Source of the DNA: Eledone cirrhosa
Lineage: Eukaryota
Assembly: GCA_964016885.1 (NCBI GenBank)
Contig: OZ024742.1
Span: 335,668,001 to 335,732,000 of the forward strand
DNA: 64,000 bases
Direction of reading: 5' to 3'
Shown: piece after piece, positions 16,369 through 57,235 of the stretch
Layout of the letters: the number at the start of each line of letters is the position of its first letter
How positions within the stretch are numbered: position 1 is the stretch's first letter
Made by a program: the position numbers and the translations under genes
Notes under the pieces: model-generated
What the model was told of the DNA's origin: nothing
Databases searched by the model: none
Seen by the model: only the letters and a program-made list of their open reading frames with translations

Positions 16369-16578
16369 AACGAAGGAAGTGTGGTAAGGAACCAGGTGGA
16401 CCATAACACAACAGAGTACTCGATACTTTGGGTAGTATAGTGGGTAATAGGAAAAGAGTCAGAATCCCGACGGCAGAGCTCAAGCCATTTCGACAGCTAT
16501 TTCTGGACTCAAATAGCTGTCTAGAAATAGCTGTCGAAACGGCTTGAGCTCTGCCGTCGGGGTTCTGACTCTTTTCCT
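16369..16578. mobile_element. Family-B mini fold-back (PLE 3' end) in (TA)n
   Basis: Reverse-oriented tail plus two inverted copies of GAAACGGCTTGAGCTCTGCCGTCGGGG; homologous to 40309, 50447, 50635, 53780, 54083. Confidence 0.8.
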
Positions 16579-16740
16579 ATATATATATATATATAAGGAT
16601 TAAAATACTGGAGCGTGTTGGAGTTAAACACCCTCTTCGTATTATAGAAATGACAGTAAAGGGTATAGCTCAATGTAATTAAACAGAGCCGAAGAATTAT
16701 GAAAATAAAACAAAGAAGCCTTCAATACATCAAAAGTCTT

Positions 16741-16790
16741 TATTAGCCAACAATGTTTCGTCCTATTAAGGACTCATCAGGGCAATCAAA
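16741..16790 (-). ncRNA. Minimal type I hammerhead ribozyme
   Basis: Minus strand: TTGATTGCC-CTGATGA-GTCCT(TAAT)AGGAC-GAAA-CATTG-TT-GGCTAATAAA. Confidence 0.85.
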
Positions 16791-18462
16791 ACCACAAGAA
16801 GTACTATCGGCCAATACAAGCCGAAAACTCCGAAGACTATGGAGTGTACATACACTAATGTATTGCAAGATTATGGGTAAAAATATATAATAAAAATCAC
16901 TAAGGAGGTGTATAACATTATGAACCATATTACAAATATAGTCCAAAGCAAAAAAAGAGCTAAACAAAGGTGGTTATATAGAGCGGGAATTATATATAAT
17001 ACTATATAATATAATATACTTGTAACAATATTAAAATTAAAATTAAAAATTAAAATTAAAAGGCACAATATACATATGTATATATGTACGCACACGTACG
17101 CACATATACATATACATCAATACACATATCCATCATTAACAGCACAAATTAAACCTTATTAAGAGTTTAAATATAAATAAGCATAATAGGAATAAAAATA
17201 ATAATAATACGTATATCTAATATACAGTATAACATGAAGTAATAAAATGATTAAATGTAACACATATAATATATAATAAACTATATAATTATATAATATA
17301 TAATATAATATAATAGATAATCTCCGGTTAATTTACACAAAGAATATAGATGTCACAATAATACTATAATAATAATATAATAATATATATAATATATAAT
17401 GGCATGTAAGTTAACAAATCAATTCATATAGAGTTACAGAGTAGGTGAAAAAAAAAAATAAATTGTACAATACCCAAAATTATGATGGTACAAAAATATA
17501 AACATCTTACATGATATATAAAATTTAACATATCATAATGGTACATAAAATCAACGGTAAGTAAGTAATAAGGATCAATAGTACAATAACAACTTCAATA
17601 TAAAATAATGAACATAATATAATATATAATTACTTATAATTACAAGGTTGGTAAACAGACACATATGTGAATGAGTGAATAAGGGCCAGACAGAAAATAC
17701 TATGCACAGTAGTATTAATAAATAAATAAATAAATAAAATCAACCGGAAATTAAAAAACAAAAAACAAAAGTATTTACTTAGGTCTCACATGCAGTTAAG
17801 TAAAAACTTAGGAAACAACCCAGGTAAATGACTCGAAAACCCTATTTGATAAATTAATATTGAAGATATTTAAAATACCTAATAAGGCAATACAATATTA
17901 GCTATGGTTTAAGTAATCAAAATTTATAAACATTAATATTTCACTAAAAATATATATATAAAGGAATGAAATATTCTACTATCATTTACATAACGATATC
18001 TAAAAAACTGACTTAAGCAGAATTATGGTAGGCTAATAGGGACAGAAAAAAAGAAATGTATGGAGGATACAAAGGAGCATAAAATTATAATCAATATACT
18101 GTATTATATAATAGAAAGGAGCATAAATGAGAGGGGGGGGATTAAATATAATCATAATATATTTGAAGGGGTTGACAATAAGTTTATGTGTGCAGGGGGG
18201 GGGGGGTTATCCAAAGAAGAATCCAAATAAAATAAAATAAAATGAAATAAAATAAAATAATATAAAATATATAATCAGATATATACTTATAAGGTGTTAA
18301 TAGTGAAAATTTAATGTGTAAGAAGATAGATATGGTATAGTAGCCAAAAGATTATGAGAGCTAGAATAAAAAGTTGTCAAAAACCAATGATAATAATGAT
18401 GATAATAATGGTGGTAAACAAAAAGAACCTAAACTAAAAAAATAAGTAATGGAATATATCAG

Positions 18463-53985: not shown

Positions 53986-54082
53986 ATATATATATATATA
54001 TATATATATATATGTGTGTGTGTGTGTGTCTGTGTGTGTGTGGGTGTTAATACATATATATATGTATATGTTTATATATAGA

Positions 54083-56533
54083 ACGAAAAAGGTGTGGTAA
54101 AGAACCAGATGGACCATAACGCACCAGAGTACTCAATACTTAGGGTAGTAGAGTGGGTAATAGGAAAATGTTCAAGACCCCGACGGCAGAGCTCAAGCCG
54201 TTCGACGGCTATTTCTGGACTAAATTAGAATTTTTAGCGTGGTAATAAATAGCCGAACTTTTTAAGGGGTAATTCCTTATATGGGAAGATTGTAGTTATC
54301 AAAAGGATTGGTCAAAATTTTTTGTAAACACAATTAAATCTTTCATTGCGGTGAGTGGGAGGTGGGGGTCGCTGAACTTGCCTGTAGGACAATGAGGGAG
54401 AGGGTGGTGCCGCTCAATCGTTGAAAGTGAAGTCTATACAGCAAATTCTAAGGAGTGTGTTTGAAATTAGGCTATCTAGAAAGCAGGCGAAAAAAGAATT
54501 CTGGAGGAATCTGAGTGGAAAGTTATAAAATTAAAAGGTTAATAAATTGAGATTAAAAAATAAAAAAATAATAAATAAAAAGAATAATAATATTAAAAAA
54601 TTAAATAATTAAAAAATAATTAAAAAATTGAGTCTAAAGCAGCTGCTATATTTTTAGCTGGTATTGCGTTTTCGGCAAATGCTATATAGAATTTACTGGG
54701 GCGGGGGTACTGAGGCTACAAAAGTCCGATGGGCTTCTTTTTCCCCACTTGCCGAACACGATAGGGGAAACCCGGGCACACAGGAAGATGTACTTCTTTA
54801 TTTTTTCCCTTTATCTCTTCTTCTCACTTCCTTCCACGCCCTCTCCTCTTCCTTTTACTTTTTCCTCTTTCGCTTACCCTGAGGCAGCCCATCGGGCTTT
54901 TGTAGCCTCAGTACCCCTACCCCAGTAAATTCTATATAGCATTGGCCTAAAACACAATACCAGCTTTCGTGAGGAAATCTCCTTTTATGCAGCTTGCCTT
55001 AGCGGAACCAGCAGGCGACGCCGCCGCTCACGCCACGTAACGTGGGTCAACCCTCCTCACAATGCCGAGATTGCAACACCAATCGGGAAAATCTTCTTTA
55101 GGCTCCTCGAAAAACACTTCCCACCACAACACCCTTACCACAACATAATGAACAAAACACTATCAAACTCTCCTACAGCGCCACACCCAACTTCGCACAA
55201 AACATTGCCTCCTCAAACAACAAGAAACTCAACTCGTATGGAAGAAACAACCTAGACATTAGTGGAGAGCCGACCAGGAGGTGTAACTGCCCTGATAGAT
55301 CTACGTGCCCCCTCAACAACAGATGCCGAGAAGGTAACGGTGATCTACCAATGCAACGTGAGGACGGAAAACGAAGCCTAGATAGGATTAACCGCTTGTG
55401 ACTTTAAGACCCTGCTCTACCAACACCGACATACTTTCAGAAACCCGGCCCGGCGGCATGCCACTATACTTTCGGGCTACATCTGGGACCTCCAAGATAA
55501 TAAAATAACATAACATCTTACTTGGATCTTACTGTCCCGGGCTAAGTCCTACACAGGCGGACGCCGCCCGTGTAACTTATGCTTGGAGGAAACAATACAA
55601 ATGTTATTTACGAAGGACTAACTCCTAAAAAAAAAGACGAACTTGTAACTGCATGTAAACACCGATTGCGTAGGACTTACCTCGCCCTCAAACACCCTCA
55701 TGACCCGGGTGGGTAGACAATGGCTGCAACATCCTTCTTTTCCCCACTTGCCGAACAAGATAGGGGAAACTCCAGCAGACATAGGTAGATGTACTTCTTT
55801 TCTTTTTTTTCCTTTATCTCTTCTTCTCACCTCCTTCCACTCCCGCTCCTCTTCCTTTTTCTTTTTCCTCTTTCGCTTACTCTGAGGCAGCCTATCGGGC
55901 TTTTGTAGCCTCAGTACCACCACCCCGTAAATTCTATATAGCATTGGCCGAAAACGCAATACCAGCTAAAAATATAGCAGCTGCTTTAGACTCTAGTTTT
56001 TTTTATATTTTTTTTATTATTTATTTTTTTAATGTTATTATTATTTTTATTTATTATTTTTTGATTCTTTAATCTCAATTTATTAACCTTTTAATTTTAT
56101 AACTTTCCACTCTCAGATTCTTCCAGAATTCTTTTTTCGCCTGCTTTCTAGATAGCCTAATTTCAAACACACTCCTTAGAATTTGCTGTATAGACTTCAC
56201 TTTCAACGATTGAGTGGCTCCACCCACTCCTTCATTGTCCTACAGGCAAGTCCAGCGACCCCACCTCCCACCCACCACCATGAAAGATTTAAATTGTGTT
56301 TACAAGAAATGTTGACCAATCCTTTTGACAACTACAATATTCCCATATAAAGAATTACCCTTGAAAAGTCCGGCTATTTATTACCACGCTAAAAATTCTA
56401 ATTTAGTCCAGAAATAGTCGTCGAAACGGCTTGAGCTCTGCCGTCGGGGTCTTGAACATTTTCCTATTACCCTAAGTATTGAGTACTCTGGTGCATTATG
56501 GTCCATCTGGTTCCTTACCACACTTCCTTCGTT
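54083..56533. mobile_element. Large family-B PLE fold-back enclosing a GIY-YIG coding fragment (54962-55730, + strand) related to 21181-21950
   Basis: ~650-bp inverted arms 54083-54735/55890-56533; internal duplication 54733-54965/55733-55966; FFRLLEKHFP, CNC..CPL, CNLC motifs. Confidence 0.88.
56357..56450 (+). ncRNA. Hammerhead-like motif with a U3-A8 compensatory core (family B); degenerate copy 54177-54270 (-)
   Basis: ACCC-TTGAAAA-G..CGGCTATTT..AAATAGTCG.C-GAAA-CGGC(TTGAGCTCT)GCCG-TC-GGGGT. Confidence 0.68.
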
Positions 56534-56766
56534 ATATATATATATATATATATATATATATATATATATATATATATATATATATATATATAAACATATA
56601 CATATATATATATATGTACAAACATATACATATATATATATATATATATATATATATATATATATATATATATATATATAAACATATACATATATATATA
56701 TGTATAAACATATACATATATATATGTATAAACACACACACACACACACACACACACACATATATA

Positions 56767-57235
56767 TAGTATTAAGGATACTATTTATGGTTATGTATAT
56801 ACGAAAACCTTTTATAGTTATATATATATTATACCCTAAATAGTGAAAGACAGTAATTTATTACTATCTTATTACCAGTAAGATAAATAGCTCAATGTAA
56901 CAACATCAGTTGTTTTACAGAGCAGTTATATAGAGATTACATGAAACAAAGTTCTGTTTAAATCATTTATCTGCTTACAATTGTTTCTTCCAAACCGAGG
57001 TTTGGAGTCTTCGGAGCAATTATTCAGTGATTTTTAACATACTTGACCTTCTTTTCAACACAAGAGACTGTGGGTCAATATATACATATGTTTCTATATG
57101 TCTCTTGTGTTGAAAAGAAGGTCAAGTATGTTAAAAATCACTGAATAATTGCTCCGAAGACTCCAAACCTCGGTTTGGAAGAAACAATTGTAAGCAGATA
57201 AATGATTTAAACAGAACTTTGTTTCATGTAATCTC
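56767..57235. mobile_element. Family-A fold-back with two back-to-back CCGAAGA hammerheads (56971-57019 -, 57149-57197 +)
   Basis: Tail 56767-56932; arms 56933-57068/57100-57235; homologous to 37561-37860. Confidence 0.88.

What the first reader, a model, noticed from the sequence alone, without database searches (positions are those of the whole stretch)
16369..57235. Recurrent asymmetric hairpin insertions in (TA)n: one arm with tail, one ending at a fixed internal TA-like site
Seen in four families (B: 16369, 40309, 50447, 50635, 53780; A: 33411-38345 and 56767; also 39800 and 51778). The two ends of each insertion are both element 3' ends pointing outward. One includes an ~75-170-bp tail. 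The other stops at a constant point shortly after the ribozyme where the element itself reads TA-like (TTTTCC|TATT, GTAATCTC|TATATA, CATC|TATATT). 50447-50559 has only an inverted tail plus a short arm. Established: inverted pLTRs and tails are known for Penelope. Inference: both cut strands of a (TA)n target prime reverse transcription, one at the RNA end and one at the internal site. Because both cDNAs often copy the same ribozyme region, two templates (or a tandem/circular RNA) would be needed; palindromic loop-3 dimerisation could supply them.
Basis: partly seen in the sequence, partly recalled or inferred. Interest (0 to 1): 0.75.

Follow-up and report, generated by a model that had tools for sequence, protein, structure and literature searches.

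The report
Twin-primed Penelope hairpins ending at cap
These lopsided hairpins in TA repeats are real head-to-head insertions of Penelope-like jumping genes that almost always pair one tailed end with one tail-less end, likely because both cut DNA strands start copying at two internal points of the element's RNA and, in the short ones, likely run off its capped start.

Summary
Observation confirmed. The inserts are ends of four Penelope-like families (A and B have Hydra-clade protein motifs). Two-armed insertions carry one tail end and one tail-less end in 70 of 70 (B, one ambiguous), 29 of 29 (A), 24 of 25 (C); the window holds one tail/tail exception. Architecture and two-site, both-strand priming are published (Craig 2021; Frangieh 2024). 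Circular, tandem or loop-3-dimer RNA is not needed and does not predict the asymmetry. Best model: one protein complex on one uncut RNA primes both strands at two sites; two separate RNAs remain possible. No RNA data were available. This scan reported the asymmetry on other pieces of this genome and the run-off reading in other genomes before.

The parts
16370..16577 (.). Family B hairpin: tail arm on - strand (outer end 16370, inner end 16510 with non-native G before the wall A), short templated insert, S1 arm on + strand ending TTTTCC|TATA at 16577
40308..40511 (.). Family B hairpin: S1 arm (-) 40308-40364, tail arm (+) 40373-40511; both inner ends read G + AGT(C/T)CAG
50448..50559 (.). Family B: inverted partial tail (about 53 nt) joined to a short S1 arm
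50633..50816 (.). Family B (second subfamily) hairpin, tail arm (-) and S1 arm (+)
53782..53984 (.). Family B hairpin, tail arm (-), S1 arm (+) starting at the wall (53927)
54083..56532 (.). Family B long insert with a tail at BOTH outer ends (exception); 659-nt arms 91% alike, an extra internal piece and the endonuclease part of the ORF
29307..29359 (-). Family B single S1 arm
33411..38343 (-). Family A full-length partial tandem: S1 end at 33411, 557-nt pLTRs 99.5% alike, 170-nt tail 37563-37732 that reads on into the ORF, 57-nt inverted tail 38287-38343
35033..37524 (-). Family A ORF in two overlapping frames (RT 35914-37524; linker + GIY-YIG-type endonuclease 35033-36010) with RWR, DKT, CxCx5C, CxxC and CxH motifs
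56768..57236 (.). Family A hairpin: tail arm (-), S1 arm (+) from 57067, 137-nt arms identical, S1 followed by (TC)18(TA)n
39800..39983 (.). Family C hairpin: tail arm (-), S1 arm (+) starting G + AGATTCC at 39928-39929, the first base of ribozyme stem I
51777..53006 (.). Family D inverted pair: S1 arm (-) 51777-52088, tail arm (+) to 53006; both arms run past the wall (51933, 52679); low-complexity expansion in the middle

Best explanation
These are insertions of Penelope-like retrotransposons whose two outer ends sit at two fixed internal sites of the element, likely made when one protein complex on one uncut RNA uses both nicked strands of a TA repeat as primers, and the short hairpins likely arise when both copies run off the capped 5' end of that RNA. 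Shown: two end types (S1 after the ribozyme, T at the tail end), almost always one of each; both sites are internal and read T, TA or TAT next; arms cross the ribozyme cut; inner ends of B, C and D stop at a wall with TATA-like and initiator-like context, in B with excess G. Published: the protein nicks and extends both strands and starts at two internal sites flanking the tail, on unprocessed RNA. Inferred: (1) transcription starts in the upstream pLTR 60 nt before S1 in B (inside ribozyme loop II) and at the first base of stem I in C and D; (2) the protein binds near this 5' end or at the downstream copy of the same region, giving short or long arms; (3) each strand's TA end pairs with 1-6 bases at its site and can realign there, giving reiterated units and (TC)n in A; (4) the T-primed copy either stops near S1 (inverted tail only) or displaces the S1-primed copy and recopies the same segment; (5) the two cDNA 3' ends snap back a few bases and join by microhomology, each serving as template for the other's second strand.
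For: Pairing counts 70/70, 29/29, 24/25, 5/6. T is internal: six tandem B loci read on CTT(C/T)GT|TAT(C/T)TAGC; A reads on into the ORF. Wall: 142 of 229 B arms end within -8..+2, 8 run on more than 35 nt; C 45 of 85 versus 4 in the next 33 nt; D 16 of 49 versus 4. TATA-like box 30-31 nt upstream in 33 of 47 B and 12 of 15 C long arms, 31-32 nt in 4 of 4 D. Base before the B wall: G in 27 of 27 arms where it is a non-native purine; genome-wide G 2,597 against A in 13 of the first 100 of 2,088 A/C matches; 10 of 30 G not explained by neighbouring element sequence versus 2 of 30 T, 5 of 28 C, 0 of 2 A. Cap-derived G is described for full-length L1/SVA (PMC2912911 passage); a promoter inside the pLTR for D. 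virilis Penelope (PMC2377424). Uncut template: 8,360 versus 584 matches, 63 of 100 listed being five-G variants. Same subfamily on both arms 97 of 99 versus 31% shuffled. 6 of 10 tail arms that stop inside the tail stop within 15 nt of S1. Reiterated S1 units in three A copies; extra (TC)3+ in 23 of 62 A S1 arms versus 138 of 9,096 TA runs, absent from the opposite flank in 17 of 17. In vitro precedent PMC11167929.
Against: No RNA evidence for the start site or cap. Family A shows no wall (2 of 92 arms at the candidate site). Many G's before the B wall can also come from the partner arm (20 of 30), and T precedes the wall in about half of the non-native T class through microhomology (16 of 30 T loci are truncated). 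B's TATA-like box is also the 5' strand of stem II, and in C and D the wall coincides with the edge of the ribozyme fold, so a structural stop is not excluded. One RNA is not proven: subfamily agreement may reflect bursts in time, 64 of 163 pairs were unassigned and at least one pair (L067) has arms of two subfamilies. Exceptions: window 54083-56532 tail/tail, L100 family-C S1/S1. One-armed insertions are common. The Poseidon study found no homology between start site and cut DNA.
Confidence: 0.6

Rival explanations
1. Two separate capped RNAs are used, one per strand, and an asymmetric protein complex assigns S1 to one and T to the other; everything else as in the best model.
For: Both arms often reach the same wall, which one RNA can give only by strand displacement (34 of 70). 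Arms of two subfamilies in L067.
Against: 97 of 99 assigned pairs share a subfamily against 31% shuffled; tail arms pile up just short of S1 (6 of 10); symmetric products are almost absent.
Confidence: 0.25
2. The wall is a structural stop at the ribozyme fold (loop II in B, base of stem I in C and D), not a transcript start.
For: The wall lies at a ribozyme landmark in all three families; family A, with a small ribozyme, has no wall.
Against: The landmark differs between families while the 30-32 nt spacing to a TATA-like box is shared; the wall is one-sided and sharp; non-native G excess; long arms pass it without a second stop in the 5' stem strand.
Confidence: 0.1
3. Only the tail site is primed; the cDNA folds back on itself and the short arm is its DNA copy, ending at S1 by TA microhomology (close to the self-priming idea in PMC3846280).
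For: Snap-back pieces at centres and single-loop junctions exist; obligate asymmetry follows naturally.
Against: In 19 of 24 single-loop junctions it is the S1 arm that keeps the wall; S1 arms are often far longer than the tail arm (33411-38343; 10 of 70 B and 8 of 29 A tail arms stop inside the tail); S1 shows reiterated start units.
Confidence: 0.04
4. One reading: one strand primes at the RNA 3' end, and a loop-3 RNA dimer or a circular/tandem RNA supplies the second template.
For: Palindromic loop III in A and D (CAATTG) fits the dimeric minimal hammerheads of PMC4209133; A's full-length copy has the region twice, so a tandem template can serve some long insertions.
Against: T is internal; arms cross the cut site; both arms end at one wall; a symmetric dimer does not predict 70/70 asymmetry.
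Confidence: 0.04

Closest known systems
Hydra clade of C-terminal EN+ Penelope-like elements (Craig et al. 2021, PMC8557442; includes Hydra-1_Obim, (TA)n preference)
   Same: [quoted passage not shown]
   Different: Tails are 70-170 nt rather than 30-40; family A monomer is 4.3 kb with an Asn-rich stretch; pairing is near-obligate rather than 'often'; short cap-to-tail hairpins dominate B. No tree against named Hydra sequences was built.
Poseidon element PAc of Anolis in vitro (Frangieh et al. 2024, PMC11167929)
   Same: Both strands nicked and extended, two internal RT starts that bound the tail, uncut RNA as template, AT-rich target.
   Different: There the start sites show no homology to the target and no strand-to-site coupling was reported; here both sites read T/TA/TAT and each insertion uses one of each.
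L1 twin priming (described in PMC2912911)
   Same: Two target strands prime on one RNA; inverted junction joined by short complementarity; cap-derived G at full-length 5' ends.
   Different: In L1 one primer uses the RNA 3' end and the other a variable internal site, with little overlap; here both sites are fixed and internal, the same segment is usually copied twice, and the route looks like the rule.
Adineta vaga Penelopes (Arkhipova et al. 2013, PMC3846280)
   Same: Inverted pLTRs, optional tail on one of them, palindromes at the inverted junction, TATA + Inr in the pLTR.
   Different: That paper reads the palindromes as self-priming on an antisense template; the data here favour two sense-template primings with a short snap-back only at the join.

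Membership tests
EN+ Penelope-like elements | Single ORF with PLE-type RT and C-terminal GIY-YIG endonuclease | tested here: met
   A: RT motifs with YRDD and endonuclease part in two frames; B: RT through endonuclease in L310; 894 homologues, invariant RDD. Pfam gave no hit for A's pieces but GIY-YIG for two related window ORFs. C and D proteins were not examined.
EN+ Penelope-like elements | Partial tandem pLTRs, inverted 5'-truncated copy, one-sided tail | tested here: met
   33411-38343; L312, L315
EN+ Penelope-like elements | Hammerhead motif in the pLTR | tested here: met
   Core and stems by sequence in A, B (U3-A8 core), C, D; B and D stems recovered by folding, A and C minimum-energy folds differ. 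Rfam did not score these four. Cleavage not testable.
Hydra clade | RWK motif, DKT, CxCx5C linker, CxxC and CxH, CCHH absent | tested here: met
   A and B: RWR, DKT, CNCx5C, CNLC, C(Q/K)H (against section 11); RWK is RWR
Hydra clade | Insertion into (TA)n | tested here: met
Hydra clade | Phylogenetic placement with named Hydra families | not tested
   No tree built; consensus sequences not fetched
Twin priming on one RNA (L1 type) | One primer at the RNA 3' end | tested here: not met
   T site is internal
Twin priming on one RNA (L1 type) | Both cDNAs from the same RNA molecule | tested here: inconclusive
   97 of 99 same subfamily, one clear mixed pair
Retrozyme / circular-RNA elements | Ends at the ribozyme cut, tandem repeats of a monomer | tested here: not met
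Run-off at a capped transcript start | Capped RNA 5' end at the wall | not testable with these tools
   No RNA holder listed; DNA-level signs only

The most novel reading that the evidence does not exclude
Coupled twin priming is the normal insertion route of these Penelope-like elements: one complex reads one RNA from two fixed internal starts, each target strand pairs through TA and can realign telomerase-style (writing new TC/TA repeat), the two cDNAs serve as each other's second-strand template, and most products are dead-end cap-to-tail hairpins that record the transcript start in tens of thousands of copies.
Probability: 0.35. Interest if true: 0.7.

Novelty: new member of a known kind. 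Interest (0 to 1): 0.45.

Why it matters
How Penelope-like elements, the sister group of telomerase, build their inverted and tailed insertions is stated as open in PMC8557442 and only partly solved in vitro in PMC11167929. The counts here turn it into yes/no experiments: one RNA or two, fixed pairing of the two start sites, primer pairing with TA, run-off at the cap. The hairpins are also very abundant (31,714 exact matches to the family C core alone) and so shape this genome's microsatellites and inverted repeats. The element kind and architecture are known, and this scan has noted the same readings on other DNA.

Tried and rejected
RNA evidence: no RNA holder listed; only contigs of runs of unrecorded kind could be laid, none spanning a whole window hairpin. 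Protein dimer prediction for family A residues 4-480, two copies: no verdict. PDB sequence search: nothing relevant. Rfam: only microsatellite-like miRNA noise and two other hammerheads. A strict hammerhead scanner missed the U3-A8, C3-variant and long-stem forms. My first guess that B centres are a native stem-loop II was wrong: long copies continue differently and the centre pieces are snap-backs. First wall counts were inflated by hairpin loci used as references and were redone. A wall in family A was not found. Tail folds are no more stable than shuffles (z 0.39 to -0.77), so no tail hairpin is claimed. Gene conversion between arms rejected as a major cause of arm likeness (6 shared rare variants, shuffle mean 1.4, maximum 8). 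Spliced or trans-spliced leader at the B wall rejected because upstream sequence is not constant. Post-insertion growth of the (TC)n runs could not be excluded. Literature searches listed no paper on obligate pairing or cap run-off in PLEs; the library lacks most subscription papers, and the supplements of PMC11167929 were not read.
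Full report
Observation. I call the end shortly after the ribozyme S1 and the tail end T. The window lies in a 3.0-Gb animal genome; the closest named homologues of the family A protein are from Argonauta, and the host was not otherwise established.

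What the elements are. 33411-38343 is a full partial tandem: S1 end, ORF in two overlapping frames, 170-nt tail, 557-nt upstream pLTR 99.5% like the downstream one, and a 57-nt inverted tail. Family B has long copies of about 3.1 kb elsewhere. Both proteins have RWR, DKT, CxCx5C, CxxC and CxH and lack CCHH, the marks given for the Hydra clade, which favours (TA)n (PMC8557442 section 11). C and D were tied in by architecture and ribozyme only.

Pairing of ends. I sampled with motifs that lie upstream of both end types. B: 90 loci from the first 100 of 197 matches, two dropped as second arms of the same hairpin; ten listed places were not fetched (the window itself, duplicates, two already held, four left over). 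Of 88 insertions 70 have two arms and all 70 are T/S1 (L053 ambiguous); 18 have one arm within the scored distance. A: 60 of 76 clusters from the first 100 of 1,742 matches; 29 two-armed, all T/S1. C: 24 of 25; D: 5 of 6 with one cut off. Exceptions: window 54083-56532 (T/T) and a C hairpin in L100 (S1/S1). S1 is sharp in A and B and spread over about 15 nt in C.

Known part. [quoted passage not shown] A purified Poseidon protein nicks and extends both strands and starts at two internal sites that bound the tail, on unprocessed RNA, without homology to the target, and is predicted to be a dimer (PMC11167929 parts 1-2 of 4; supplements not read).

T is not the RNA end. In tandem B copies the tail reads on as TATCTAGC or TATTTAGC toward an ATG about 95 nt further; in A it reads on as TAATAAC. 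So both sites are internal and both are followed by TA-like bases. At A's S1, three copies carry reiterated TATAAT(T/C)TC units, and 23 of 62 S1 arms carry three or more extra TC against 138 of 9,096 TA runs overall and 3 of 218 in B; the opposite flank lacks (TC)n in 17 of 17 two-armed cases. This fits pairing and realignment of the primer at S1; later microsatellite growth from a TCTC seed is not excluded.

The template is uncut. For the commonest B subfamily 8,360 arms read through the predicted cut; 584 have other bases before it, and 63 of the 100 listed are five-G variants of the native sequence. Among 70 unselected partner arms 6 end near the cut and 38 near the wall.

The wall. B arms stop at the A of TTT|AGTCCAG, 60 nt before S1, inside ribozyme loop II: 142 of 229 arms end within -8..+2, 22 more align at +7 through snap-back sequence, and 8 run on. 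C arms stop at the first base of stem I (45 of 85, against 4 in the next 33 nt, 20 run on) and D likewise (16 of 49, against 4; 12 run on). A TATA-like box starts 30-31 nt upstream in 33 of 47 B and 12 of 15 C long arms and 31-32 nt upstream in 4 of 4 D (search window 23-36 nt). The wall bases read TTAGTC, TCAGTC, CCAGAT and TCAGTT, initiator-like by recalled consensus. Before the B wall, 27 of 27 non-native purines are G; genome-wide G 2,597, T 5,675, A or C 2,088 with A in 13 of 100 listed. Of 30 loci each, 10 G, 2 T, 5 of 28 C and 0 of 2 A were not explained by neighbouring element sequence; 14 T were native long arms. A reverse-transcribed cap is the usual reading of such a G (PMC2912911, two passages), and the D. 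virilis promoter lies in the pLTR (PMC2377424 passages and Discussion). Against: many G's are ambiguous, B's box doubles as stem II, family A has no wall (2 of 92), and no RNA was available.

One RNA or two. 59 of 70 tail arms cross S1, 34 of 70 insertions have both arms at -50 or beyond, and 1 has an arm beyond -85. A circular or tandem RNA has no such shared edge, so the same cap-proximal segment was copied twice, from one RNA by displacement or from two RNAs. For one RNA: strict T/S1 pairing, same subfamily in 97 of 99 assigned pairs against 31% shuffled (163 pairs including the 30 query-biased loci; 64 unassigned), and 6 of 10 in-tail stops within 15 nt of S1. For two: L067 has arms of different subfamilies, and subfamily agreement can reflect age. 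Fold-back of a tail-primed cDNA alone fails, since the S1 arm keeps the wall in 19 of 24 single-loop junctions and is often much the longer arm. Centres hold short inverted and duplicated pieces, as expected if cDNA ends snap back briefly and then join.

Artefact check. Centres vary, arms carry independent mutations, a duplicate with flank exists on another contig, and contigs from two samples show the same kinds of joints.

Earlier scan notes. After forming this reading I found AI notes on the same genome reporting Hydra clade and one-sided tails and notes on other genomes reporting run-off 30 nt behind a TATA-like box with extra G; two searches returned nothing. They are not counted as support.

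Verdict. Real, abundant, and of a known kind. What this adds is near-strict coupling of the two start sites in vivo, TA-like bases at both sites, and a probable cap run-off that explains the short hairpins.

Noticed in passing
window 14121-14660: Palindrome with 212-nt arms 99% complementary and an HH9-like hammerhead (14378-14449) in the loop; not directly in a TA run.
   Followed up: no
window 43703-44225: Large imperfect palindrome with internal tandem repeats and no TA flanks.
   Followed up: no
window 16596-16800 and 18463-19923: A further family: type I hammerhead at 16742-16786 (-), tail end at 16596, contig loose ends at 16697, and a GIY-YIG-like ORF upstream.
   Followed up: partly
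window 20902-22386: Decayed family-B ORF piece, 85% like L315.
   Followed up: partly
window 1-13447 and 40897-41820: Long tandem satellite and a diverged inverted relative.
   Followed up: no
window 28400-28930; 47697-48248: A GIY-YIG remnant of another family and an RVT_1 fragment.
   Followed up: no
L210; L066; L173: Whole insertions with their flanks are tandemly duplicated (five 1-kb units in L210), so counts of matches overstate events.
   Followed up: partly
L237, L282: Tail arm interrupted at S1 by a TA run (L237), and an S1 arm that jumps to tail position +21 and recopies (L282): possible re-cutting at S1 or template jumps.
   Followed up: no
L014, L029, L056, L364 and window 50447-50816: Insertions of the same and different families stack in one TA tract, each flanked by new TA runs.
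   Followed up: no
window 16255-16349, 39457-39519, 38560-38661, 31806-31908: Short palindromes and a further hammerhead-core family (CTGAGGA at 38580).
   Followed up: no
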